Shown here: piece after piece, positions 1 to 11,452 of the stretch
How positions within the stretch are numbered: position 1 is the stretch's first letter
How the letters are laid out: every line of letters begins with the position of its first letter
Source: a virus
Lineage: Duplodnaviria > Heunggongvirae > Uroviricota > Caudoviricetes
DNA length: 11,452 bases
Virus record (IMG/VR): IMGVR_UViG_2778261693_000002
Coordinates: 1-11,452 of that record
Reading direction: 5' to 3' (one strand)
The notes under the pieces: generated by a model
Database searches by the model: none
Told to the model about the DNA's origin: nothing
The model's input: the letters and a program-made list of their open reading frames with translations, nothing else
Made by a program: the position numbers and the translations under genes

Positions 1-157
1 GCGTACCGGGTTGAGAAGCGGTGTAAGTGAACTGCAGTTGCCATGTTTTACGGCAGTGAGAGCAGAGATAGCGCTGATGTCCGGCGGTGCTTTTGCCGTT
101 ACGCACCACCCCGTCAGTAGCTGAACAGGAGGGACAGCTGATAGAAACAGAAGCCAC
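1..157 (-). CDS. insA: IS1 InsA (N-terminal transposase/repressor protein), 5' portion only; 3' end lies outside the window
   Basis: Minus-strand frame from GTG at 157-155 translates [52 protein letters not shown]..., matching remembered InsA; runs off the window edge. Confidence 0.75.
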
Positions 158-212
158 TGGAGCACCTCAAAAACACCATCATACACTAAATCAGTAAGTT
201 GGCAGCATTACC
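1..212 (-). mobile_element. IS1 insertion sequence, partial (left ~212 bp including terminal inverted repeat at 190-212; element continues beyond window start)
   Basis: Reverse complement of 1-212 reads GGTAATGCTGCCAACTTACTGATTTAGTGTATGATGGTGTTTTTGAGGTGCTCCAGTGGCTTCTGTTTC..., i.e. the IS1 left terminal IR followed by the insA start. Recognised from memory of IS1, not searched. Sequence changes abruptly to AT-rich DNA at 213. Confidence 0.85.
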
Positions 213-689
213 AATTTTCTCTTCTATATTACCAGTTTCAGCTGCAATTGCAGATATACCTGAATTATATAATTCTAATCTGCGTAAAATTTGCTTTGGT
301 AATAAATTTCTATCTTTCAGCCTCTCAAATGAAAAAAGGTCATTAATCCTATGAGAGATATATAACATTGAAATAACATAAGATGGTATAGCGGTTTGTT
401 GAACTGATGCGTTACCATTGTTTATATGATTAATATTTTGCTGAGCATGATCCAGAGTGTAAATGAGCGCATCAATTACTGCAATGTCATCTGAAGATGG
501 TACAAATTCCTGCATCTGATTAATTCTATCAGATAACATTTTTGGTAGTTCTATCAGATCCTCTTTATGTAAAAAAGGAAATGTGTACGGCCCAAGGTTT
601 ATAAAATCTTCCACAGGGAATACAAGACCATTAAGTGTTGTATGTAAATTATCTAGTTTCTCTTTTAATTCAGTTAGTTTTTCGTTCAT
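186..689 (-). CDS. AT-rich hypothetical protein (orphan cargo gene); frame runs into IS1 and stops 8 codons inside the IS1 terminal repeat, so the native C-terminus is probably lost
   Basis: Long ORF in low-GC DNA. ATG at 689 is preceded by AAGGA (revcomp of 698-702); the longer track start at 836 has no RBS and sits directly on the upstream terminator T-run. Last codons GNAANLLI* are encoded by IS1 sequence 186-212. No recognisable family. Confidence 0.45.
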   Translation of the reverse strand: MNEKLTELKEKLDNLHTTLNGLVFPVEDFINLGPYTFPFLHKEDLIELPKMLSDRINQMQEFVPSSDDIAVIDALIYTLDHAQQNINHINNGNASVQQTAIPSYVISMLYISHRINDLFSFERLKDRNLLPKQILRRLELYNSGISAIAAETGNIEEKIGNAANLLI

Positions 690-845
690 TAAAAAATCCT
701 TTATGACGCTATCGAACTTCCAGAGTAATCCGATAAAGATATCATAAGACAATATTTTGGTATAAACACTTATTGCGCGCGCTCGTATCCCCGCCACGCC
801 TGCCCGCTTTATGTAGTGGTTTTCATGCACCTGCATGATCTACGC

Positions 846-869
846 AAAAGCCCGCCAGTTCTGGCAGGC
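846..869 (-). terminator. Rho-independent terminator for the LexA-controlled operon (minus strand)
   Basis: Plus-strand AAAA (846-849) followed by GCCCGCCAG tt CTGGCAGGC (9-bp stem, one mismatch); on the minus strand this is a GC hairpin followed by TTTT, ~135 nt downstream of the DinI-like stop. Confidence 0.5.
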
Positions 870-1003
870 CTTAGCAAAAACGATCCTCAAACGATCATGC
901 GATCTCATGCGGCATAGACATGCACCACAGAGCTAACGCCTCGCACAGCTCGTTGTTCAACCTTGCTGACGCCAGAAGCAAGTTCAGACGCCAGCAACGT
1001 TTC

Positions 1004-1237
1004 TTAATGCAGCCAGCTGTCGTCTTCCCACACCTTCTGCATAATTTTCATCACTTGTTTTCTTTCTTCGTCCAGTTGCAGTCCGGTCAGTTCCACACCG
1101 TTAGAGCTACCTTTGCGGATACGAATTACCGTTTTGGGATACAGAGGGCGCAGATTGCGGTAAAGCTCGGATTCAAGGGCGTCCAGTGTAGACTGGCTAA
1201 CCTTCTGCTCTTTATCGATCATTATTTCAATGCGCAT
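1004..1237 (-). CDS. DinI-like DNA-damage-inducible protein
   Basis: From internal ATG at 1237 (RBS GAGGTG 5 nt upstream) the product MRIEIMIDKEQKVSQSTLDALESELYRNLRPLYPKTVIRIRKG...KIMQKVWEDDSWLH aligns by eye with E. coli DinI (MRIEVTIAK...IDALAGELSRRI...ETWESADDWF). The 101-aa track ORF from 1309 is an upstream extension. Confidence 0.8.
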   Translation of the reverse strand: MRIEIMIDKEQKVSQSTLDALESELYRNLRPLYPKTVIRIRKGSSNGVELTGLQLDEERKQVMKIMQKVWEDDSWLH

Positions 1238-1247
1238 AAAAGTCACC

Positions 1248-1436
1248 TCAGCTGATGACATCCATTGAGCGGTTGTATTCGTGGGTTCTGATTTTTGCCA
1301 TGAGTTCATCTGTCAGTTCAGAAACCCACTGCAGGGCCAGCCCCTTCTCTTCATCACTACACTCACTAGCCGCTACAAGCTTAAGAAAAAAATCAATGCG
1401 CTGGAGCTTCAAAGACTCCAAAAAATAGTCCTGCAT
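1248..1436 (-). CDS. Small hypothetical protein, first gene of the LexA-box operon (positional analogue of the phage 186 Tum antirepressor; function not recognisable)
   Basis: 62-aa ORF with strong RBS (AGGAGG, revcomp of 1441-1446) 4 nt before ATG at 1436; directly downstream of the LexA box; its 3' end carries the RBS of the DinI-like gene. Confidence 0.45.
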   Translation of the reverse strand: MQDYFLESLKLQRIDFFLKLVAASECSDEEKGLALQWVSELTDELMAKIRTHEYNRSMDVIS

Positions 1437-1476
1437 CTTTCCTCCTATGACACCAAAGCAATACTGTATATATAAC

Positions 1477-1496
1477 CACTGTTTATATTTACAGTA
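1477..1496 (-). promoter_or_regulatory. LexA (SOS) operator, CTGT-N8-ACAG, with an overlapping second half-site at 1462-1474
   Basis: cACTGTTTATATTTACAGTA at 1477-1496 matches the LexA consensus TACTGTATATATATACAGTA at 17/20; TACTGTATATATA at 1462-1474 is a perfect left half with a degenerate right half. Located ~45-60 bp upstream of ATG 1436 in an AT-rich promoter-like region. Confidence 0.7.
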
Positions 1497-1588
1497 TATA
1501 ATAATCTTACTGATGTAAAACGTTTTTTTATGCTCATCAGCCTGATATGCCTGGTATTATTAAGGGCACGAATTGTTAACCCGCGTAA

Positions 1589-4003
1589 TTAATACAGGTT
1601 TCGCCACTTATCATCTTCCTGCAAACGCTGGTTCCGATAGAAGATACGCAGGCCTGCTCCTGACGGAATACTGCCGCCGCGAAGCAGTAAATCGACCTCT
1701 TTCTCGCTGCCATCAAATCCCCTGGACTTCAGTTCATACACGAGCTGCTGTCGCTGATGATCTGTAATTCGCTGTTTGTAGTCTTTACGCCGTTTCGGTT
1801 TCACAAGGCGTAACCTTGCTGCCAGTTCCCGGCGCTCTTTTTTGCTCATACTGTGCAGGTAATCGTGCAACTCCTTGTCATCCATGCGGGTGATATCCGT
1901 TCTGGTATCTCCATCAGCTGATTTGTCTTTCCCTTGTTGGTACAAATTTTCAGCAAGGGGACAGTTATTGCCACGAGTCCAAGGGGCGCAAGCGCCCTGG
2001 TCGGCTGCCGCCTCCTGAACGTCAACGGCCTTACGAACCATTTTCCACTTCACTGCATGAGTGCAGATCTTGCCCTCTGCAATGGGTGACCAGATGCCAT
2101 AAATACGAATACCGTGATCGCCATAGGCGGTTGGCTCTTCGTTGATTTCATAAGCGGTTCTGATGAGGTGATATTTGCGGGGAACCAGTACGCCGCCCTG
2201 CTTCATGATGTAGGTGGCAAAACAACCAGCATCAGCAGCAGCCAGGATGGCATCAAGGCGCGGGTTATCCAGTACCGACGCACCTGCTTTTTTGTCACCC
2301 TGTTGCCTTGCCGCCTGACCAGCCAGCAATCGCAGTTCACGGTAAGCCTGACGCCCCGGAATGCCAAAGAAGCGGAATTGCTGAACACGATGCAGAGACG
2401 CCCAGGCATTAACGTATTCAGCGTTATCACGCAGGGATTTCCCCGTTTCCTTACTGATCTCGCCAGCCAGACCACGCCCGTCAATATTCTTACTGATATA
2501 TTTCGCAATGTAGCTTGTCGGCGTTCCTTTGCGCGGGTTTATCAGCTCAGACTTAAAGCGTGGCCCCGTGTTATTGCCCAGCTCCTCGCGGTCTTCACGG
2601 ATGGCAAACTTACGCAACAATGCAGTAATGGCGCGGCGGTCTTTTTTGCGCATGAAACACAACAGGTGCCAGTGAACTGTGCCATCATGATGCGGCTCAG
2701 CCACCCGCACGCCATACCAGCGCAACCCGGCTTTGTGCATAGCCTTACGAAATGCAGCAAACATGCCGACCAGATAATCGCTGCTTTGTCTTACTGTCGC
2801 GTTGGTCCAGGTCGGGTTTGGCCTGCCGTTATTTAGCGTGGAATGGAAACGTGACGGACAGGTGATGGTGTAGAAAACGGCGCAGTCACCGCGCATTTCC
2901 GCGATAAGCTCCAGGCCTTTAACACAGGCCATCATCTCGTTGCGGCGATGCGCCGGGTTGCTGCTGCTGGCGTTTACCACATCCTCCATGTTCAGCGTGT
3001 CGCCGTCTTCGTTCACCAGTTCATGAGAACGGAAAAACTCCAGCGACTTACGGCGCTGCTCACGTTTATGCATCACGGCTTCATAGCTGACATAGGGAGA
3101 TGCTTTTTTGCTGACCAGGCAGACAGCACGCAACTGCTCTTCCCGCCATTCGCAACGCATCTTCCATAATTTCCGATACCACCAGTCGGCGCACAGCATA
3201 CGCGCCAGCGAACCCGGAATGCGTTCATAAGGCACAGGTTTGCGGCGGTTTCTTTTCCGGCGGAGTTGCTCAAACGCAGGCGGTATGACATCCAGTCGCA
3301 GGGTTTCTGCAGCCACCTTTTCCCATGTCTTGCGGATTTCTTCTGGCTTAACATCATCGGAGGCGTACAAATCACCACAAGCGGCATCAAGACACATGCT
3401 CATATGCGCAGCGACAAGGGTAGACAGGCGTTTCACCTGATCCTGACTCATTTCAGGCAGGATCAGCAGACCGTCCAGCCCTTCATGGCTTGCCATAAAC
3501 CGAAAAGATGCAGATAGCTGGCTGTCGCGTACATGCTCCAGTCGTTCCAGACATGGCTTAATCGTCTCACGCAAATAGCGGGAATAAGCCTTTGGCCTGC
3601 CCAGGCTGCTGAAGTATTCAATACGTTGCATCAGCGGCTTGCTGATATGGGAAGGCTGGGCGTTGACGTCAGCCAGAATGACCATGTCTGGATTAAAACG
3701 CTGCTGCTCATGCGCCATCTTTGCCCGGCTAATGAGCTTATCCTGCTCCATTTCGCGTTGGACAGGATCACGGGATTCATTAAAGAAATAACGCTCCCAG
3801 ACCTGATCACTTAGTGCCTCGCGGCGCAGTTGTTCCTGCTCGTTATCGGTAGCGTACAAAGTGATCAGGTTTGAAAGCGCAGAAACCGGCGCAACTTCCA
3901 CCGGGTCCAGATAAGGGTTAATGGCCTTTTTCGGGCTGTTCCATGAGAATGCTGCGGCGACCTCGTTAAAGCCGCTGCAGTTGTTCATATCAGCATGGCT
4001 CAT
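1589..4003 (-). CDS. Replication initiation endonuclease, phage P2 gpA family (HUH rolling-circle initiator)
   Basis: 804-aa ORF; HUH motif VHWHLLCF and paired-tyrosine active-site motif YIAKYISK; ATG 4003 overlaps the upstream Dam stop (ATGA); RBS GGAG 8 nt upstream. Confidence 0.9.
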
Positions 4004-4857
4004 GCACGCACTCCGTACACGGCAGAACTATCCACGCCACGCGAAGGATCAAATCCCATCCAACAGCGCGGCCCGGAAACAGCGATGATTTCTGTTGCAG
4101 ATTTACTCTCACCAGCTGCTACACCGATGCTGCGTTTTGCCTTGATGTAGTGGTGAGTAAAATTGCGATACAGCGAACGGATCAGGGATGTATCACTGTT
4201 AGAAACAATGACCGGATGTCCTTCTGATGACCGATGTTCAAGAACGGATGCCAGGTGATACTGGTCATCTTCAGTGAAACCATCAGTGTGATAGCCGGAA
4301 AACGTACCGTCATACGGCGGATCGCAATACACCACATCCCCCACCTGCAGCATCGCCAGCGTTTCATCAAAGCTTGCGCAGATAAACGTTGCACGCTGGG
4401 CCTTTTCTGCAAATGCGCGAATTTCTTTTTCAGGGAAATACGGATTTTTATAATTACCGTAGGGAATGTTGAAATGCCCGCTCTTGTTATAGCGACATAA
4501 ACCACGGTAACCGTGACGATTGAGATACAGGAAATATACCGCTTTCATGAAATCAGTAATTTCAGTTGAGTAATTAAACTCCTGCCTTATGTTGTAATAA
4601 GCCACCTCCCTGTTTGCGATCTCAAATAAAACTCTGGCGCGAGATATAAACGATTCACAATCAGCAGCAACCTTTTTATAGAGGTTGATTAAATCAGGAT
4701 TAATATCCGCAACAAGATAGCTGGGGTAATCCGTCTCCATCATCACAGCACAGGAACCCGCGAAAGGTTCAACCAGTCGCGGGCCAGCAGGAAGATGTTT
4801 TTTCAGTTCGGACATAATGGCAGTTTTATTACCCGCCCATTTCAGGATGGTGCTCAT
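4000..4857 (-). CDS. dam: DNA adenine methyltransferase (Dam-like, N6-adenine, GATC class)
   Basis: 285-aa ORF with KWAGNK, FAGSCAV (AdoMet-binding region) and catalytic DPPY motif ([10 protein letters not shown]); RBS GGAGGTG; start overlaps the stop of the upstream gene (ATGA). Confidence 0.85.
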
Positions 4858-5081
4858 ACAGCACCTCCGTTGTAATGTTTACCTTTCAGCTCTGCGATTT
4901 CCTGACAGGTAATGCAAAGCTGCACTCCCGGAATGGCGCGGCGGCGCGCTGGCGGAATTGGCGCTTCACACTCAATGCAAAGCACGCGAGACACGCCAGG
5001 TGTTTTGGCACGGGCAGCACGGATGTGGCGCTGGCGTTCTTCTTCAACGCGCTGCTGTACGAGATCCATTGCATCAGCCAT
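4854..5081 (-). CDS. TraR/DksA-family C4 zinc-finger protein
   Basis: 75 aa; CIECEAPIPPARRRAIPGVQLCITCQ...KGKHY closely parallels F-plasmid TraR (LCEACGNPIPEARRKIFPGVTLCVECQ...RKHY) as remembered; RBS AGGAGA; ATG overlaps the preceding stop (TAATG). Confidence 0.8.
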   Translation of the reverse strand: MADAMDLVQQRVEEERQRHIRAARAKTPGVSRVLCIECEAPIPPARRRAIPGVQLCITCQEIAELKGKHYNGGAV

Positions 5082-5314
5082 TAGTGGATCTCCTGCGCTT
5101 CGTTCTGGATTGCTTCAGCGGTCACACGCAGCAGTTCTGCTGCTTCAACGTGGTTTAGCTGGCGGGATGAGATATGACACGCCAGGCTATCAAGGCGAGC
5201 TGCCATTGCTTCAGCCCTTGCCCGGCGTTCTTCCAGACGAGCCTCTGTCAGTAAAAGATTAAGACCTGCATCATCCGGTCCGGTTTTGGTCGTGAGGGTT
5301 TCAATATTACGCAT
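5081..5314 (-). CDS. Hypothetical phage early protein
   Basis: ORF in the early operon; the track start at 5320 is TTG, and the ATG at 5314 has RBS AGGAGA 7 nt upstream; stop overlaps the next start codon. Confidence 0.45.
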   Translation of the reverse strand: MRNIETLTTKTGPDDAGLNLLLTEARLEERRARAEAMAARLDSLACHISSRQLNHVEAAELLRVTAEAIQNEAQEIH

Positions 5315-5381
5315 AAGCAATTCTCCTGAATTTAGATAAAGGGATGCCCGGCGGGTTTACGCCATTAATTTCATTAGTTGG

Positions 5382-5723
5382 TTAATTCGGCATGGTTAGC
5401 CGTCTGGGAAATAAGCTCACCACTGCACGAAAATGATTCATTGCTTTAATCAACTCCCGCTTTTCGTCAGTGGTCAGCTCATTAATGCTGATGCTATGAC
5501 GTTCAGCTGGAATTTTTGCCATAAAGAATATGGCAGCCAGGGCTCGTTTATTTTGTTCGTTATTAATATCCCGTGGATCACGCATATCTTTAATAAACCG
5601 CTCAAGCTCTGACTCAATATTCAGGCCAAATACTTTCGCCCTTAACTCCGCAATGTGATTAAGTCCATTCAGGCGTTCACCGGGGCTTAATGGAACAGTC
5701 GCCGCAGCGCCTTCAATAGCCAT
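5382..5723 (-). CDS. Hypothetical phage early protein
   Basis: 113-aa ORF, ATG at 5723 preceded by GGGGGAA; co-oriented and tightly packed with neighbours; no recognisable motif. Confidence 0.5.
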   Translation of the reverse strand: MAIEGAAATVPLSPGERLNGLNHIAELRAKVFGLNIESELERFIKDMRDPRDINNEQNKRALAAIFFMAKIPAERHSISINELTTDEKRELIKAMNHFRAVVSLFPRRLTMPN

Positions 5724-5887
5724 TTGTTCCCCCGTTTTTTCGTAGATAGTTCTGCCAGCAATTCATCTTGTGAACGGCACGGATGCCAGCGTTTACCATC
5801 CTCCCCCATAATCCAGCCGTGACCATAATGCATTGCCGGGCTTTGTTTAACCAGCAGCGATGCAAATGATGGTTCTTTCGTCAACAT
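5687..5887 (-). CDS. Small hypothetical protein (position of 186 fil/dhr-type small early genes)
   Basis: Track ORF starts at GTG 5917 inside the CII-like gene; the ATG at 5887 with RBS GAGGTG begins after the CII-like stop. 66 aa from ATG. Low information. Confidence 0.35.
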   Translation of the reverse strand: MLTKEPSFASLLVKQSPAMHYGHGWIMGEDGKRWHPCRSQDELLAELSTKKRGNKWLLKALRRLFH

Positions 5888-5894
5888 AAGCACC

Positions 5895-6404
5895 TCACAG
5901 CAAACCAAATGAAGCACCGAGGCCAGTCACGGTATCAACTGCACTCGCCATCGCAGGATTAGCCTGTAAACGGGCCTGCAATGAAACAGCCGCCAGCGCC
6001 ATCAGTCGTGTTACAGAGTTAATGCTGCTGATAGCATCACGACGACCGGCGCAGGTTTTTACATCGCCAGACACCGCACCTGCAGCAACACGCCCGATCT
6101 CTGCGGTTGCACTCATGACGTAATGTGGCAGTTTCTCTTTTGCCACCTCATTAATCGGTACACATGGCAGACAATGAATCTGTGCCAGAAAACCATCTAT
6201 CAGCGTTGAGTCTTCTGTCAGATCGGTAAGCAGCCAGATTTCTGGCGCATTGAGCTGATGCGGTTGATCTGGGTTGAGTTTGTTTCGCAGTGTCTGAACA
6301 TTCATTCCTGCACGTTCTGCCAGCTTCGCCATATTGTGACGTAGTGCAAAAGCTCTACAGGCTTCATCAAAATACGGATGTTTGGAAATCTTGTAATCAA
6401 ACAT
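5895..6404 (-). CDS. CII-like transcriptional regulator (HTH), second gene of the lytic operon
   Basis: 169-aa ORF, the same length I recall for phage 186 CII and in the same position (directly after apl); HTH-like segment MAKLAERAGMNVQTLRNKL; RBS GGGGG 4 nt before ATG 6404. Confidence 0.55.
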   Translation of the reverse strand: MFDYKISKHPYFDEACRAFALRHNMAKLAERAGMNVQTLRNKLNPDQPHQLNAPEIWLLTDLTEDSTLIDGFLAQIHCLPCVPINEVAKEKLPHYVMSATAEIGRVAAGAVSGDVKTCAGRRDAISSINSVTRLMALAAVSLQARLQANPAMASAVDTVTGLGASFGLL

Positions 6405-6436
6405 GCTGCCCCCTTAGAAAGTTCCCATAATTGAAC

Positions 6437-6679
6437 TTACTTACCAACAATGACGCGGAAGTTGGAATGTCCGAGGGATTCACGGACCTGATCAGTTTTG
6501 TACATCAGATAACGCAGACTTACGCGGCCTTTGTTTTTTTCTTTCTTGACCATGTACTTAGCAAGTTGACCATGGTGAATTTTTTGGTAAACAGAGCCGC
6601 GGGAAATGCCCTCCCACTCTGCGAACTCTGCAGGTGTTGCCATCTCTTTTGGTACACGAATTGAAATATCAGTACTCAT
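6437..6679 (-). CDS. Apl/Cox-type excisionase and switch regulator
   Basis: 80-aa first gene of the minus-strand operon, convergent-promoter arrangement opposite cI as in 186/P2; HTH-like EFAEWEGISRGSVYQKIHHGQL. Confidence 0.65.
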   Translation of the reverse strand: MSTDISIRVPKEMATPAEFAEWEGISRGSVYQKIHHGQLAKYMVKKEKNKGRVSLRYLMYKTDQVRESLGHSNFRVIVGK

Positions 6680-6758
6680 AGTGCAGTATCTCTTACTTTG
6701 TGTGCGTGTTAGTTCGTTTTAGCCCGTCTCTTAAACTCTCACATCAAGAGACAAGAAA

Positions 6759-6787
6759 ACATTACGATCTTGATTCAAGATTGTCAA
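6759..6787 (-). promoter_or_regulatory. Candidate lytic promoter (pR-like) with palindromic operator in the spacer
   Basis: Minus strand reads TTGACA (revcomp of 6782-6787), 17-nt spacer, TAATGT (revcomp of 6759-6764); the spacer contains the perfect palindrome ATCTTGATTCAAGAT (6767-6781); a further TCAAGAG half-site lies at 6745-6751. Confidence 0.4.
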
Positions 6788-6800
6788 ATGGAGATTACCA

Positions 6801-7433
6801 ATGTTAAACATCAGAATGGGTTCCGATACGGGAGGTAAAGCAGCTATTGAGAGGCTGCTTGCGGCTTATGGATTCACAACTAAGCAGGCATTAAGTGAGC
6901 ACCTGAATGTCTCAAAAAGCACTATGGCAAACAGAGTGTTACGTGACAGCTTTCCTGCTGACTGGATAATTCAGTGCGCACTAGAAACCGGTGTTTCGTT
7001 GCTTTGGTTAGCTACAGGACAGGGAAGCATGAAAGCAGGATCTGAGACTGAAAAAAGATCTCACAATGAGAACAAACAAGCAATTAAACCGTTATCTAAA
7101 CTCATAACTCCATCTATTCCTAAAGGAACCTTGGAGAATGGACAACTCAGTATTGATGAAGAGATTTTCCTAGACCACAGCATATTACCTGCAAATTATG
7201 AAGAATCGATGTTCTTAGAAACCCCTACTGATTGTTATCTCATCGATAAATCAGTTAAACAAGTCAGCAATGGATTCTGGCTTATCAATATTGATGGAAT
7301 GATTATTATTGCAAAAATTATGCGGATTCCCGGCAATAAGATTGTAGTAAATCAAGATGAAGCGTCTTTCGAGTGCTCTGCTGATGATGTGGAAGTTATT
7401 GGGCGTGCAGTCAAAGTAATAAAGAGTATCTAA
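6801..7433 (+). CDS. CI-type immunity repressor (N-terminal HTH, C-terminal domain)
   Basis: 210-aa ORF immediately upstream of and co-transcribed with int (stop 7431-7433, int ATG 7436); HTH-like TTKQALSEHLNVSKSTMANRV; RBS GGAG; divergent from apl across the switch region. Confidence 0.7.
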   Translation: MLNIRMGSDTGGKAAIERLLAAYGFTTKQALSEHLNVSKSTMANRVLRDSFPADWIIQCALETGVSLLWLATGQGSMKAGSETEKRSHNENKQAIKPLSKLITPSIPKGTLENGQLSIDEEIFLDHSILPANYEESMFLETPTDCYLIDKSVKQVSNGFWLINIDGMIIIAKIMRIPGNKIVVNQDEASFECSADDVEVIGRAVKVIKSI

Positions 7434-7435
7434 AC

Positions 7436-8452
7436 ATGACTGTCAGAAAACAGCCAAACGGCAAATGGTTGTGTGAGTGCTATCCCAATGGACGCAATGG
7501 CAAGCGCGTGCGTAAGCAATTTGCTACGAAAGGAGAAGCCATTGCTTTTGAAAGCTTCACAATGGAAGAAGTGAATAAAAAACCGTGGCTAGGTGAAAAG
7601 GATGATCGGCGACGCCTATCAGAATTAATTGAGCTTTGGTATTCCCTGTATGGTCAGACACTCGCAGACCCCAGGCGCCTCATGGCGAAACTTAGAATTA
7701 TCTGTAATGGTCTAGGCGACCCCATCGCCTCAGAACTGACAGCCGGTGACTTTACGAAATACCGCGAAGCACGGTTAAAAGGCGACGTTCGTAACGAAGA
7801 CGGCACACTAATGTCGCCAGTAAAACCACGCACGGTGAATCTTGAGCAACGTAACCTATCATCGGTTTTCGGCACATTGAAAAAACTAGGCCACTGGTCA
7901 GCACCAAATCCTCTCGCCGGGCTGCCAACATTTAAAATCGCTGAGGGGGAACTGGCGTTCCTGACCTCGGAAGAAATTAAACGTCTGCTAGATGCCTGCG
8001 CTGATTCTCAAAACCCCAGTCTGCTTTTGATTGCAAAAATATGCCTGGCCACCGGCGCACGCTGGAGTGAAGCCGAAAACCTGCAGGGCCATCAGTTATC
8101 TAAATACCGCATCACTTATACCAAGACGAAGGGCAAGAAAAACCGCACCGTGCCGATATCTCAAGATCTGTATGACGAACTCCCCAAGAACAGAGGGAAG
8201 CTATTCACTCCGTGCAGAAAAGCCTTTGAACGGGCAGTAAAGCGAGCTGGCATCGAGCTGCCAGAGGGCCAATGCACTCACGTGCTACGTCATACATTCG
8301 CCAGTCATTTTATGATGAATGGCGGAAACATACTGGTGCTACGCGATATTCTGGGCCATGCCGATATAAAAATGACGATGATTTACGCCCACTTTTCGCC
8401 CGATCACCTTGAAGATGCGGTTACTAAAAACCCTTTATGCAACTTAAGATAA
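7436..8452 (+). CDS. int: Tyrosine site-specific integrase (P2/186 type)
   Basis: 338-aa ORF; catalytic-domain signature ARWSE...HVLRHTFASHF...GHADIKMTMIYAHF (R, H-x-x-R, Y); size and position typical of P2-like int. Confidence 0.9.
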   Translation: MTVRKQPNGKWLCECYPNGRNGKRVRKQFATKGEAIAFESFTMEEVNKKPWLGEKDDRRRLSELIELWYSLYGQTLADPRRLMAKLRIICNGLGDPIASELTAGDFTKYREARLKGDVRNEDGTLMSPVKPRTVNLEQRNLSSVFGTLKKLGHWSAPNPLAGLPTFKIAEGELAFLTSEEIKRLLDACADSQNPSLLLIAKICLATGARWSEAENLQGHQLSKYRITYTKTKGKKNRTVPISQDLYDELPKNRGKLFTPCRKAFERAVKRAGIELPEGQCTHVLRHTFASHFMMNGGNILVLRDILGHADIKMTMIYAHFSPDHLEDAVTKNPLCNLR

Positions 8453-8765
8453 AGTAACTTATGAAAATAAACTCAAATTATTTACAAATATAATATTCAG
8501 CAGGTTATTTATTCTTATTTAACTCTTCAGACTGAGATTAGGTTTTATTTATAGAATAAGATAATTTCATATCACAAAAAACCTGTAAGCCCTCATCTTT
8601 GTTGTATAAAAACATAAAAGATGCCATATTCAAAAAAGTAGAAAAGCATTGCAATGCAACATTAAAAATAAGCCAATAAAAAACAGTCATTAGAAAATGA
8701 AAAAACCAAAAACATTTTTTATCAAAGCTTCAGTCTGACTACTAGTTTGACTCTGCAATTAACTA

Positions 8766-8797
8766 TCAAGATGATCAATATTTATTGATCATCTTGA
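8766..8797. repeat. Perfect 15-bp inverted repeat (TCAAGATGATCAATA tt TATTGATCATCTTGA) containing two GATC sites
   Basis: Exact reverse-complement arms read directly from the sequence; lies 33-64 nt downstream of the deaminase-fusion stop; no flanking U-tract on either strand. Confidence 0.6.
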
Positions 8798-8829
8798 AGC
8801 TGCCCTCAGGAAAGATGAGTATAATATTT

Positions 8830-10566
8830 CTACTCAAGAAGATATTCTAACTCATCTTTTATCGGGATAACTTGCTCATAAAGTCGGTGATATGACTTCC
8901 CAATTGCGCCTCTGAATTGTATTAACTTTGGTGGCTTGTTACCTATATTAATAATATGGTCTTGGGCTATACCTGGGTAGGGATCAATAAATACAATTTC
9001 AGATATACCTAACTGATAAGCTTTTTTCGCACACAGCTCACAGGGACTGGCAGTTGTATATAACCTTCCCCCCTGAACGCCAATACCACCATATTTTGCA
9101 AGTTGTAAAAAAGCGTTTTCCTCAGCATGTAATGCACGTGTATGAACTTGATTACCTTTTTTATCTTTATCAAGATCATTATGTATATCTTTAAAACAAT
9201 AAGATAAGTTCCTGCCTCTATAAATATCACCAGTTTTATCTATCGCCCTAAAATTTAAGAGTTTCTCATTAGCCTTAATTCTGAAAGAACTATTATTTCT
9301 CTCATAATGACTGTACACTTTTTCATCAAAGTCGTTCATTAGGCCATCTAGCGATCTCATAGAGCAAGGAATCTGACCGTTGGCAACATCATTCCAACCT
9401 ACTGATTTTATTGAATTGTCACCATCAGTTACTACAGCTCCCACCTGTCTAGATATACAACCAGAGTTTAATTTTACCGTATACGCAACTTGCATAACCC
9501 TTTCCATTGCAGTAGGTGTTATCAGACCAGGATGCTTCATCAGTGCGATGTACCACGCTAATTGTGCTTTTAAAATATTATCATTATCAAATTCATTTTT
9601 TGGGTTAAAAATGTGTATATCTGATAGTTCAATACATTTAGTTACATTTGGATTAGTGAGATGTTTGTAAGAGTTATCACCTTTACCTGACTCTACAGAA
9701 TCTATTTCCTCTATCTGCTTTTCAGAAAACTTATGTAGTTTCCGCAAATAGTTTGTTCGATGTTCATCTGGGGCATTTATTGACATTAAATGAAATGCAG
9801 AATATCTATCCTTAAAAAATTTTGCTTCATATGGATTTCTAATAGCATCTATGACAATTAATGCGTTATCTCTTTTGCTTTTTCTTATTAATTTAATAAC
9901 CCTATTAATAGTTTCCGGCAAATGAAAAACAGATTTAGGTATAAACTCTTTATCTTCAAAATCGACTTCAATACGCCCACGGCGTCTAATTGACTTACCT
10001 GCTAACTGATAGACTGAAACATATAAATTTGAGTTTATCGCATTTAGTTCAGCTTTGAATTCCTTAGTAAATTTTCTAACTAACCTCAAAATTGATATAA
10101 ATTTATTAATCGTTTTTTCATTAAGCTTCAATTCACTATTATGATCAAGCAAATTCTCAATTACATTTTTAAATCTTGTTAAAATTAGATTATCTGAGAA
10201 TACACCAAAAGTTAATACATTATCTAAATGCTCTTTACTGATAGATTTATTAGATGACAGAATGAATTCAGAAGCTTCTTCAACTGTTAACATCAAAAGA
10301 TACGCTGAGATTAGGTCACTCACCTTAATTGAGTAAAAATTTTCCCAGTGATTTTCTGCGAATTTTTTAACTATATTATAACGATGGACATCCAATCCCT
10401 TGTAAAAACCCTGTAATTTACTTACATCAGGGAAGACTGTTTTTTCGTTTTCAAGAATATTAGCTGTTGTTGTGCAACCAGAACCAGTTCGACCTGTCAA
10501 ACCGACTAAAATAAACTGCCCATTTTCAAGGAAAAGCTCACTAACGAATTTTTTTTCTTTCATCAC
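8830..10566 (-). CDS. P-loop-kinase-like + dCMP/cytidine-deaminase fusion protein (AvcD/DCD-like candidate anti-phage deoxynucleotide deaminase)
   Basis: 578-aa ORF in low-GC DNA. N-terminal Walker-A-like VGLTGRTGSGCTT (10468-10503, Lys replaced by Cys). C-terminal deaminase signatures RQVGAVV, zinc ligands HAE (9121-9129) and PCELC (9031-9045). Start is GTG 10566 or ATG 10563. Family assignment from memory, no search. Confidence 0.75.
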   Translation of the reverse strand: MMKEKKFVSELFLENGQFILVGLTGRTGSGCTTTANILENEKTVFPDVSKLQGFYKGLDVHRYNIVKKFAENHWENFYSIKVSDLISAYLLMLTVEEASEFILSSNKSISKEHLDNVLTFGVFSDNLILTRFKNVIENLLDHNSELKLNEKTINKFISILRLVRKFTKEFKAELNAINSNLYVSVYQLAGKSIRRRGRIEVDFEDKEFIPKSVFHLPETINRVIKLIRKSKRDNALIVIDAIRNPYEAKFFKDRYSAFHLMSINAPDEHRTNYLRKLHKFSEKQIEEIDSVESGKGDNSYKHLTNPNVTKCIELSDIHIFNPKNEFDNDNILKAQLAWYIALMKHPGLITPTAMERVMQVAYTVKLNSGCISRQVGAVVTDGDNSIKSVGWNDVANGQIPCSMRSLDGLMNDFDEKVYSHYERNNSSFRIKANEKLLNFRAIDKTGDIYRGRNLSYCFKDIHNDLDKDKKGNQVHTRALHAEENAFLQLAKYGGIGVQGGRLYTTASPCELCAKKAYQLGISEIVFIDPYPGIAQDHIINIGNKPPKLIQFRGAIGKSYHRLYEQVIPIKDELEYLLE

Positions 10567-10758
10567 GTCCCACTTATGAATGTAAGAATATTCAACATAT
10601 TAATTATAATTTATTAACTCATTTTGTTCTAGATACTTGATGTAATGGCGGCATTTTGGCGACGGAGCATTAAAAACGCGTAAGACGAGCAAATACAACA
10701 AAACACTAACACACTGTTTTTAAATATAAATAGCTGTTTTTACTATACTAAAAATGGT

Positions 10759-10803
10759 ATGTAGGAATTTCGGACGCGGGTTCAACTCCCGCCAGCTCCA
10801 CCA
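10759..10803 (+). other. ssrA: Duplicated 3' end of the tmRNA gene ssrA (att core copy; tRNA-like T-arm, acceptor strand and CCA), not a complete gene
   Basis: ATGTAGGAATTTCGGACGCGGGTTCAACTCCCGCCAGCTCCACCA: T-stem GCGGG/CCCGC with T-loop TTCAACT, 3' acceptor strand and CCA; matches the remembered E. coli ssrA 3' end. The upstream ~300 nt is AT-rich and unlike tmRNA. Confidence 0.7.
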
Positions 10804-10836
10804 CTTGCTCTTCCGGATACGTCCGGAGAAATCCTG

Positions 10837-10871
10837 AAAGCCCGCATGGCACAAGCTCTGCGGGCTTTTTT
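10837..10871 (+). terminator. Rho-independent terminator downstream of the ssrA 3' end
   Basis: AAAGCCCGCA-(12-nt loop)-TGCGGGCTTTTTTGT: 7-10 bp GC stem followed by a T6 run; preceded by a tetraloop hairpin CCGGA-TACG-TCCGG at 10813-10826. Confidence 0.6.
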
Positions 10872-10915
10872 GTGTCTACTGTTGTCCGAGGATATCCAGC
10901 TAAATCCAGTGATTA

Positions 10916-10967
10916 TTGGTATACGTTTAGGTATACGGTAGGATGTATACCTAAACGCGTATACCAA
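10916..10967. repeat. Imperfect ~21-bp inverted repeat (TTGGTATACGTTTAGGTATAC ... GTATACCTAAACGcGTATACCAA) upstream of the integrase remnant
   Basis: Arms are reverse complements apart from a one-base insertion; centred ~45 bp upstream of the AAGGAG RBS of the following ORF. Confidence 0.5.
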
Positions 10968-10987
10968 TTCATGAAGGAGCGGCCAAA

Positions 10988-11434
10988 TTGGCAAGAACGA
11001 CACGCCCCCTGACCAACACAGAAGTACTGCGCGCTAAAGCGTTAGAAAAGGATCTAACGTTGCATGATGGCGATGGTCTTTTTCTACTCGTTAAAACGAA
11101 CGGTAAGAAGTTATGGCGTTTCCGTTATCAACGTCCGGCAACAAAGCAGCGGACAATGATGGGGCTAGGTACCTTCCCAGCTCTTTCACTTGCTGACGCC
11201 CGACGGTTAAGAGCGGATTACCTTTCCTTGTTAGCCAACGGAATTGACCCGCAAATTCAAGCTGAAATTGCAGAGGAACAGCAGCAAATCGCACAGGACA
11301 GTATTTTTACAACGGTCGCCGCTAAGGAAGGTGCGAATAAGCAGGTCATTTCTTCCCAAGCTGACTCGTTGATTAAAATTTCGCGGATCTGGGCCGATTT
11401 TTTTCCCGCAAACACATCGAATCAGCCTATTTAG
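10988..11434 (+). pseudogene. P4-type integrase, N-terminal fragment (~110 aa of arm-binding domain, then divergent tail and premature stop)
   Basis: TTG start with strong RBS AAGGAG; MARTTRPLTNTEVLRAKALEKDLTLHDGDGLFLLVKTNGKKLWRFRYQRPATKQRTMMGLGTFPALSLADARRLRADYLSLLANGIDP fits the N-terminus of P4/CP4-57-family integrases (~400 aa full length) as remembered; ORF ends at 148 aa with no catalytic domain. Confidence 0.55.
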
Positions 11435-11452
11435 GCTATTTTTTCCACCATT

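What the first reader, a model, noticed from the sequence alone, without database searches (positions are those of the whole stretch)
10759..11434. Duplicated ssrA 3' end followed by a truncated P4-type integrase: serial occupation of the ssrA site
Seen: only the last ~45 nt of a tmRNA/tRNA-like gene are present (10759-10803), preceded by phage DNA and followed by terminator hairpins and a TTG-initiated integrase N-terminal fragment of a different (P4-like) family from the prophage int at 7436-8452. Inference: this is the prophage junction carrying the displaced ssrA 3' end, and the integrase fragment is the decayed remnant of an earlier island (CP4-57-like) at the same site.
Basis: partly seen in the sequence, partly recalled or inferred. 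Interest (0 to 1): 0.5.

Follow-up and report, generated by a model that had tools for sequence, protein, structure and literature searches.

The report
Prophage–satellite junction at ssrA, IS-cut integrase
This is the ordinary right-hand junction of a Fels-2-like prophage inserted in the tmRNA gene, lying directly against a P4-like phage satellite whose integrase gene was cut by an insertion sequence where the draft contig ends.

Summary
Bases 10759-10803 are exactly the last 45 nt of E. coli ssrA. Phage DNA lies upstream, and a hairpin, a terminator and the 5' part of a P4/IntA-type integrase gene lie downstream.

The serial-occupation reading is right and already documented for ssrA. The block is attR of a Fels-2/RE2010-like P2-family prophage. 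The DNA to its right is the attL arm and integrase of a P4-like satellite, 100% identical over 567 nt to the ssrA–integrase junction of E. coli CT30.

The "truncated, decayed" part needs correcting. The integrase is intact for codons 1-112. It is then interrupted at a CTAA target (11322-11325) by an ISKpn26-type IS5-family element, and the window ends 127 nt into that IS.

The window is a whole draft contig (NLHF01000087.1) bounded by IS copies at both ends; 1-212 is IS1. The 148-aa ORF is therefore an integrase–IS chimera, not a frameshift or deletion product. Whether the rest of the satellite survives beyond the IS cannot be seen from here.

The second "hairpin" (10915-10968) is an inverted pair of a 21-nt motif that recurs at the satellite's far end. 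It is probably a pair of integrase arm sites. Known kind, low interest.

The parts
7436..8452 (+). Integrase of the Fels-2/RE2010-like P2-family prophage (338 aa)
   Evidence: Pfam Int_N + Phage_integrase. The phages RE2010 and Cartapus annotate an integrase here. No meaningful similarity to the downstream integrase.
8830..10566 (-). Prophage cargo gene between int and attR: anti-phage dCTP deaminase (578 aa as listed, 577 as called)
   Evidence: PADLOC dCTPase 484.7 bits. Pfam dCMP_cyt_deam_1. NCBI names the homologue in 2020N21-246 'anti-phage dCTP deaminase'.
10567..10758 (+). Phage-side arm (P arm) of the prophage attachment site
   Evidence: Aligns with the RE2010 left end and with the 2020N21-246 attR up to the core, but not with the ssrA body.
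10759..10803 (+). 45-nt core: the last 45 nt of ssrA (T-arm, 3' acceptor strand, CCA). It is the attR core of the prophage and contains the attL core of the satellite.
   Evidence: Identical in the window, both RE2010 ends, the 2020N21-246 ssrA and the CT30 ssrA. Identity ends on both sides exactly here. Partial Rfam tmRNA hit.
10812..10827 (+). Small hairpin TCCGGA-TACG-TCCGGA in the satellite's attL arm
   Evidence: Predicted fold. Conserved in CT30, 2020N21-246 and HeN100.
10837..10871 (+). Intrinsic-terminator-like hairpin plus T-run carried by the satellite. It terminates ssrA when the satellite directly abuts the gene, as in CT30.
   Evidence: Inverted repeat I3 of 10/10 nt, terminator scan and fold. 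It directly follows the intact ssrA in CT30. It gives the weak Rfam IsrM match (31 bits against a gathering score of 376).
10915..10968 (.). Inverted pair of a ~21-nt motif (TTGGTATACGNTTAGGTATAC): candidate arm-type binding sites or operator of the satellite integrase, just upstream of its RBS
   Evidence: Inverted repeats I1 and I2. Fold z-score -5.6. A single copy of the same motif lies ~50 nt inside the satellite's degenerate attR in CT30 and 2020N21-246; 0 matches were expected by chance. The function is inferred.
10988..11325 (+). Codons 1-112 (plus 2 nt) of the P4/IntA-type integrase of the satellite: arm-binding domain only
   Evidence: 100% nt identity to the CT30 integrase WP_063104199.1. 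Pfam Arm-DNA-bind_3 at residues 8-91. The central (107-198) and catalytic (213-377) domains of the full-length protein are absent from the window.
11322..11325 (.). CTAA target of the IS insertion
   Evidence: Intact genes read GCCGCTAACTGG; the window reads GCCGCTAA|GGAAGGTGCG. The same IS in HeN100 also follows CTAA.
11326..11452 (.). First 127 nt of an ISKpn26-type IS5-family element (terminal repeat GGAAGGTGCGAATAAG); the contig ends inside it
   Evidence: Identical apart from one T in a T-run to the IS in HeN100. The HeN100 copy is 98-99% identical to copies annotated 'IS5-like element ISKpn26 family transposase'. The window is the entire contig NLHF01000087.1.
11326..11434 (+). IS-derived tail (36 codons and stop) of the chimeric 148-aa ORF
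   Evidence: Translation compared with the intact protein. It diverges at residue 113: N becomes K, followed by EGANK...

Best explanation
The region is the boundary between two mobile elements stacked at the 3' end of the tmRNA gene ssrA in an E. coli-like chromosome.

Left of 10803 is the right end of a Fels-2/RE2010-like P2-family prophage. Its tyrosine integrase (7436-8452) recombined a 45-nt phage copy of the ssrA 3' end with the chromosomal gene. The phage copy, with a phage-borne terminator, now completes the functional ssrA at the far left end, outside this contig. The displaced 45 nt remain here as attR.

Right of 10803 the DNA is not native chromosome. It is the attL arm of a P4-like satellite that uses the same gene end. 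It comprises:
- its own ssrA terminator;
- an inverted pair of probable integrase arm sites;
- its P4/IntA-type integrase gene, with a TTG start.

That gene was inactivated by transposition of an ISKpn26-type IS5-family element into a CTAA at codon 112/113. This leaves an arm-binding-domain stub fused to 36 IS-encoded residues. The satellite can therefore no longer excise on its own.

The apparent truncation of the sequence is the end of a short-read contig inside the repeated IS.

Shown: coordinates, identities, domain content, the IS junction, and the complete architecture in relatives. Inferred: that the satellite arrived first, that the motif pair binds integrase, and what lies beyond the IS.
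For: Core and arms. The four-way att comparison shows a core of exactly 45 nt. The window combines the phage P arm with the B' arm that follows the intact ssrA in CT30. The attL of 2020N21-246 and both RE2010 ends carry a different, phage-borne terminator arm.

Prophage identity. About 94-95% nt identity to RE2010, Cartapus and Klebsiella prophages, ending at 10803. The gene set comprises gpA, Dam, TraR, CII, CI and Int.

Complete analogue. In E. coli 2020N21-246 the order is smpB, intact ssrA, 36-kb P2-family prophage, int, dCTP deaminase, 45-nt fragment, intact integrase, defence genes, psu, delta and onward to a P4-type primase-helicase.

Satellite alone. CT30 has the same satellite directly after ssrA, with 100% identity to window 10759-11325.

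Satellite hallmarks. Two 120-nt repeats sit past the primase in CT30, in the position of P4's crr. The equivalent stretch of 2020N21-246 is full of GGTGAACA/TGTTCACC iterons. A degenerate attR, TTCAAACTCCGCCAGCCCAATCA, lies at the far end of both.

Integrase family. Arm-DNA-bind_3 + Phage_int_M + Phage_integrase, 61% identical to IntA.

IS. The junction is at CTAA and the IS is ISKpn26-type.

Contig. The window is the whole contig, and IS1 occupies its other end.

Frequency. The same P-arm/core/satellite-arm junction occurs in 18 of 5426 complete E. coli genomes.

Literature. Fels-2 and SopEPhi integrate into ssrA (PMC3448106). P4-type and P2-type integrase islands at ssrA are tabulated, with both present in S. 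Typhimurium LT2 (PMC10107115, Table 1, citing Williams 2003). Tandem arrays at tRNA and tmRNA genes are a recognised class (PMC4383910).
Against: The intact ssrA and the rest of the satellite are not in the window, so the full architecture rests on relatives rather than on this strain. The order of arrival cannot be read from the sequence, because the 45-nt core is invariant in all copies. The binding role of the 21-nt motif is untested. I could not retrieve the other half of the integrase from the source assembly.
Confidence: 0.9

Rival explanations
1. One reading: the integrase is a decayed remnant, truncated by deletion or frameshift, of an old CP4-57-like island. Nothing functional lies beyond it.
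For: Only 112 native codons are present, and the ORF ends after 148 codons. In HeN100 the same integrase is cut by the same IS and the island beyond is deleted up to near glaH, with no matching target duplication. IS-mediated loss of the island therefore does happen.
Against: There is no frameshift or point decay. The 5' 338 nt and the 184 nt upstream are 100% identical to an intact gene. The break is a clean IS terminal repeat at a CTAA target. The sequence stops because the contig stops. Whether the island is deleted beyond the IS is simply unknown here.
Confidence: 0.3
2. Reverse order of arrival: the P2-family phage lysogenised a naive ssrA first. The satellite later integrated into the displaced 45-nt fragment, which still contains its short core, rather than into the intact gene.
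For: The satellite's recombination core appears short: only about CTCC(C)GCCAGC is shared between ssrA and its attR. It lies wholly inside the 45-nt fragment, so the fragment would be a usable target.
Against: The satellite directly after an intact ssrA is much more common than the tandem. Roughly several hundred genomes have it, judged from the evenly spaced rows, against 18 with the tandem. The same degenerate attR next to glaH is shared by CT30 and 2020N21-246, which suggests long residence. With the satellite already in place, the phage has only one full 45-nt target, and using it gives exactly the observed order.
Confidence: 0.25
3. The juxtaposition is an assembly chimera: phage DNA and the ssrA-downstream region were joined through the shared 45-nt repeat.
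For: The 45-nt core is present twice per genome, and the contig comes from a fragmented draft.
Against: A 45-nt repeat is shorter than the 127-nt overlap seen at the contig end. The same junction exists at 97-98% identity in complete genomes (H1, H2 and H66). It is the junction expected from integration.
Confidence: 0.02

Closest known systems
Fels-2 / SopEPhi / RE2010 (Felsduovirus, P2 family) prophages integrated in ssrA
   Same: About 94-95% nt identity to RE2010 over the replication, regulatory and int region. P2-type Int next to att. The attachment core is the ssrA 3' end, and the phage restores the gene (PMC3448106).
   Different: It carries a dCTP-deaminase defence gene between int and att, where RE2010 has an unrelated hypothetical gene. 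In this host the right flank is a satellite rather than native DNA.
P4-like phage satellites (int, psu, delta, sid, alpA, eps, alpha) as defined by Moura de Sousa & Rocha (PMC8628076)
   Same: The relatives whose int 5' region is 97-100% identical have the canonical order: int, variable defence hotspot, psu, delta, a gene in the sid position, an HTH regulator, Icd-like, derepression protein, P4 primase. Past the primase lie two 120-nt repeats and GGTGAACA/TGTTCACC iterons, in the position of P4's crr.
   Different: P4 itself integrates in leuX; this lineage uses ssrA. In the window only the integrase's arm-binding domain is present, and the gene is IS-disrupted.
CP4-57 cryptic prophage of E. 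coli K-12 (IntA) and other P4-type-integrase islands at ssrA
   Same: Same insertion site, the same three-domain integrase at 61% identity, and a degenerate displaced ssrA end at the far boundary (psaA in K-12).
   Different: A different element: a satellite gene set rather than the CP4-57 cargo. Here its attL is a 45-nt fragment, not the live ssrA.
Tandem island arrays at tRNA and tmRNA genes (Islander; Williams 2003 'Traffic at the tmRNA gene', cited in PMC4383910 and PMC10107115)
   Same: Each element has its own integrase and its own gene fragment. S. Typhimurium LT2 is listed with both Fels-2 (P2-type integrase) and Stm27X (P4-type integrase) at ssrA (PMC10107115, Table 1).
   Different: Nothing substantive. 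This is another instance, with an added IS hit.

Membership tests
Complete tmRNA gene (ssrA, Rfam RF00023) | Full-length RNA with the 5' acceptor strand, tag reading frame and pseudoknots, scoring at or above the family threshold | tested here: not met
   34.9 bits against a gathering score of 47, with only the 3' part aligned. ARAGORN finds none. Identity to the CT30 ssrA begins at 10759.
attR of a Fels-2-like (P2-family) prophage in ssrA | Phage DNA up to the core, with the core identical to the copy carried by the phage | tested here: met
   The RE2010 match ends at 10803. The 45-nt core is shared with both RE2010 ends.
attR of a Fels-2-like (P2-family) prophage in ssrA | P2-type tyrosine integrase adjacent to the att site | tested here: met
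   7436-8452 has Int_N + Phage_integrase and is annotated as integrase in the phage records.
attR of a Fels-2-like (P2-family) prophage in ssrA | Intact, phage-completed ssrA at the other prophage end (attL) | not testable with these tools
   It lies outside the 11.4-kb contig. It is present in the analogous locus of 2020N21-246 (tmRNA at L006 36958-37320).
P4/IntA-type tyrosine integrase | N-terminal arm-type DNA-binding domain (PF13356) | tested here: met
   84.6 bits, residues 8-91.
P4/IntA-type tyrosine integrase | Central domain and catalytic domain carrying the active-site tyrosine | tested here: not met
   The window holds residues 1-112 only. Phage_int_M (107-198) and Phage_integrase (213-377) are found in the full-length CT30 protein but not here.
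P4-like satellite | Core set psu, delta, sid, alpA, eps and alpha next to int | not testable with these tools
   These lie beyond the IS and the contig end. psu, delta, Icd-like and P4 primase are annotated, with an unnamed gene in the sid position, in CT30 and 2020N21-246, whose int 5' regions are 100% and ~97% identical. A search for the other half of the gene failed.
IS5-family element (ISKpn26 type) | Terminal inverted repeat GGAAGGTGCGAATAAG and high identity to annotated copies | tested here: met
   11326-11452 matches the HeN100 copy, which is 98-99% identical to ISKpn26-annotated copies.
IS5-family element (ISKpn26 type) | 4-bp CTAA-type target duplicated at both ends | tested here: inconclusive
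   CTAA is present at the visible junction. The other end is outside the window. The target preference itself is from my own knowledge of IS5.
IsrM sRNA (RF02763) | Score at or above the gathering threshold over the whole RNA | tested here: not met
   31 bits against a gathering score of 376. Only the terminator hairpin aligns.

The most novel reading that the evidence does not exclude
The tandem may be more than an accident of site sharing. With the helper-type P2-family prophage inserted between ssrA and the satellite, the live tmRNA gene would be insulated from the satellite's excision. Judged from its degenerate attR (…GCCAGCCCAATCA), that excision would otherwise leave a defective ssrA 3' end, as shown for CP4-57. 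Helper and satellite would also be inherited as one linked unit. The surviving arm-binding stub of the integrase (148-aa chimera), together with its palindromic sites, might still act as a DNA-binding regulator.
Probability: 0.07. Interest if true: 0.35.

Novelty: already known. Interest (0 to 1): 0.12.

Why it matters
It matters mainly as a correction for annotation.
- The fragment should not be called a tmRNA gene.
- The 148-aa ORF is an integrase–IS chimera.
- The apparent truncation is a contig break in a repeat.
- DNA right of the ssrA fragment belongs to a P4-like satellite, so prophage-boundary tools should stop at 10803.

Biologically it is one more example of ssrA as a shared landing site. 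It places a P2-family phage next to the kind of satellite that parasitises such phages, with anti-phage cargo in the prophage here and in the satellite of relatives. It opens no new question.

Tried and rejected
Finding the other half of the integrase in the source assembly. I built the expected IS-end/integrase chimera from the HeN100 IS and the CT30 integrase. A homology search returned only full-length or differently truncated integrases, with no chimera.

Naming the source organism. The cluster look-up gave no name, and no held paper cites the accession. The closest DNA is E. coli.

Looking for a perfect ssrA-end repeat at the satellite's far end. None was found at up to 3 mismatches in 16 nt. 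Reading the sequence revealed a degenerate copy with an indel instead.

The IsrM hit was rejected as a terminator-only match.

Williams 2002 and 2003 could not be read. They are cited only through papers that quote them.

Rousset et al. 2022 does not mention ssrA or dCTP deaminase.

Full report
**What the window is.** The 11,452-base window is the whole of contig NLHF01000087.1 of assembly GCA_002226055.1. Bases 1-212 are an IS1 end. Bases 11326-11452 are the first 127 nt of an ISKpn26-type IS5-family element. The contig is thus a unique stretch between two repeated insertion sequences, as expected where a short-read assembly breaks. Between them, 213-10803 is the replication, regulatory and integration end of a P2-family prophage. 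It is closest to Salmonella phage RE2010 (Felsduovirus) and Escherichia phage Cartapus, at about 94-95% identity, and the match stops exactly at 10803. The called genes fit this: gpA, Dam methylase, TraR, CII, CI and Int.

**Checking the observation.** Bases 10759-10803 are identical to the last 45 nt of the annotated ssrA of E. coli CT30. Similarity to the ssrA body ends at 10759. Rfam aligns only this 3' part to the tmRNA model (34.9 bits, threshold 47). ARAGORN finds no tmRNA or tRNA gene. Downstream lie three structures:
- a small hairpin at 10812-10827;
- a terminator-like hairpin with a T-run at 10837-10871;
- a long palindrome at 10915-10968.

The ORF at 10988 starts with TTG, 8 nt after AAGGAG. 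NCBI's annotation of CT30 starts the integrase at the same base, and strain 2020N21-246 has GTG there.

**Anatomy of the attachment site.** I aligned the window with both ends of the RE2010 record, with the ssrA end of the prophage in E. coli 2020N21-246, and with CT30. All five share exactly the 45-nt core.
- Left of the core, the window and RE2010 share the phage arm, while the two intact genes have the ssrA body.
- Right of the core, RE2010 and the 2020N21-246 attL share a phage-borne terminator arm (…CAAGGGGTTACGTGAAAGCGTAGCCC TTTTTT).
- Right of the core, the window and CT30 share a different arm (CTTGCTCTTCCGGATACG…AAAGCCCGCATGGCACAAGCTCTGCGGGCTTTTTT).

This is the pattern expected of attP, attL, attR and attB. 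The window is attR, and the 45 nt are the displaced original gene end.

**What lies to the right.** Bases 10804-11325 are 100% identical to the DNA that follows the intact ssrA in CT30. In CT30 that DNA opens a P4-like satellite. The gene order is:
- a 399-aa integrase;
- two variable genes;
- psu, an ogr/delta-like gene, and a 244-aa gene in the sid position;
- an HTH regulator, an Icd-like gene and a 'derepression protein';
- a P4-family primase.

Past the primase come two 120-nt repeats. These resemble P4's crr, a comparison that rests on my own knowledge of P4. A degenerate copy of the ssrA end, TTCAAACTCCGCCAGCCCAATCA, lies just before glaH.

E. coli 2020N21-246 has the full two-element series:
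- smpB, the intact ssrA and a reverse-transcriptase cargo gene;
- a 36-kb P2-family prophage, ending with its int and a dCTP deaminase;
- the 45-nt fragment;
- the intact satellite integrase, then HEPN and DUF262 genes, psu and delta, and onward to the primase;
- GGTGAACA/TGTTCACC iterons past the primase, then the same degenerate attR and glaH.

The junction 'phage arm + core + satellite arm' is found in 18 of 5426 complete E. coli genomes. A Klebsiella prophage record that overshoots its boundary shows the same kind of neighbour, an integrase 60% identical.

**The integrase.**
- The full-length protein has the Arm-DNA-bind_3, Phage_int_M and Phage_integrase domains.
- IntA of CP4-57 has the same three domains and is 61% identical.
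- It is unrelated to the prophage Int.
- Close relatives are spread over Escherichia, Salmonella, Klebsiella, Enterobacter, Citrobacter and other Enterobacterales.

**The truncation.** Intact genes read …GTCGCCGCTAACTGGTTCCAG…. The window reads …GTCGCCGCTAA|GGAAGGTGCGAATAAGCAGG…. The new sequence is the terminal repeat of an IS whose copy in E. coli HeN100 is 98-99% identical to elements annotated as ISKpn26. It follows a CTAA, the kind of 4-bp target IS5-type elements use; that preference is from my own knowledge.

Residues 1-112 are native and carry only the arm-binding domain. Residues 113-148 and the stop are read from IS DNA. There is no frameshift and no sequence decay, so the event is recent relative to the divergence of these strains.

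In HeN100 the same IS sits at another CTAA in the same gene. There the far flank is unrelated DNA near glaH with no matching duplication, so the island was deleted. That fate is possible here but cannot be assessed. I could not recover the other half from the source assembly.

**The palindrome.** The arms of 10915-10968 are two inverted copies of TTGGTATACG(N)TTTAGGTATAC, and one arm has two extra bases. One further copy of this motif lies about 50 nt inside the satellite's degenerate attR in both CT30 and 2020N21-246, where none is expected by chance. Sites flanking the core on both sides of an excised attP and sitting on the integrase promoter region are what arm-type integrase sites look like. 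By analogy with P4 I propose that is what they are. This is inference.

**How it most likely came about.** The satellite, or its predecessors, occupied ssrA first. It supplied the gene's last bases and a terminator and left a now-degenerate fragment near glaH. The P2-family phage later recombined its 45-nt core with the only full-length target, the live ssrA. That places the prophage between the gene and the satellite.

Three things support this order, none decisive. The satellite-only state is much more common than the tandem (spread rows). The degenerate attR is shared between strains. With the satellite resident, there is only one usable target for the phage.

The ISKpn26-type element then hit the satellite integrase, and an IS1 hit the prophage's accessory region.

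**Consequences (inferred).** The prophage can still excise between its two 45-nt cores. The satellite cannot excise without integrase supplied in trans. The functional ssrA no longer depends on the satellite's junction.

**Comparison with the literature.**
- Fels-2 and SopEPhi integrate into ssrA (PMC3448106, citing Pelludat 2003).
- Table 1 of PMC10107115 lists islands at ssrA with P4-type integrases, including CP4-57 and Stm27X, whose excision would alter the gene's 3' end. It also lists P2-type ones, including Fels-2, that leave it intact. Both kinds are present in S. Typhimurium LT2 (after Williams 2003).
- Tandem arrays in which each island has its own integrase and its own gene fragment are a routine category in Islander (PMC4383910).
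- P4-like satellites and their defence hotspot between int and psu are described in PMC8628076 and PMC9122126.

**Verdict.** Nothing here departs from these descriptions. It is an already known kind of locus and of low interest.

Noticed in passing
window 1-212 and 186-836 (-): The contig starts inside an IS1 (IS1B-type) end. The adjacent 216-aa ORF has no Pfam or PADLOC hit and runs into the IS, since its stop at 186 lies within IS1. It is therefore probably a prophage accessory gene truncated by IS1. The uninterrupted sequence from 213 onward occurs in many E. coli genomes as a 'hypothetical protein'.
   Followed up: partly
window 8830-10566 (-): Between the prophage int and attR lies an anti-phage dCTP deaminase (PADLOC dCTPase 484.7 bits). 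RE2010 has an unrelated hypothetical gene in this slot, so it is a variable cargo position.
   Followed up: partly
window 10837-10871: The terminator after the ssrA fragment gives a weak Rfam match to the 3' end of the Salmonella island sRNA IsrM (31 bits against a gathering score of 376). This suggests the IsrM terminator derives from the same kind of integrase-upstream att arm.
   Followed up: no
L001 (E. coli HeN100) 3345-8633: A different prophage, with DarT/NADAR (DarG-like) cargo and its own integrase, abuts the same satellite arm with a shorter ssrA identity block. The satellite integrase there is cut by the same IS at another CTAA, and the rest of the island is deleted up to near glaH.
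   Followed up: partly
L007 5290-5320 (-) and L011 930-960 (-): The satellite's far-end ssrA fragment is degenerate (TTCAAACTCCGCCAGCCCAATCA against TTCAACTCCCGCCAGCTCCACCA). Excision from a directly abutting ssrA would probably leave a defective 3' end, as reported for CP4-57 (PMC10107115). In the tandem arrangement the live gene is shielded from this.
   Followed up: partly
window 10988; L002 6389: The integrase start codon is TTG in the window, CT30 and HeN100, but GTG in 2020N21-246. A change between two valid start codons supports this as the true start.
   Followed up: yes
phage record OK490418.1 (Klebsiella phage Kp4865-2), hits H26 and H41: This deposited 'phage' record runs past the att core (match to window 10873). 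It includes a neighbouring P4/IntA-type integrase 60% identical to the full-length CT30 integrase. The predicted prophage therefore overshoots into a second element, and the same tandem exists in Klebsiella.
   Followed up: no
L006 35934-36849: In 2020N21-246 the other prophage end, next to the intact ssrA, carries a reverse-transcriptase-domain gene. It may be another defence cargo. It lies outside the window.
   Followed up: no
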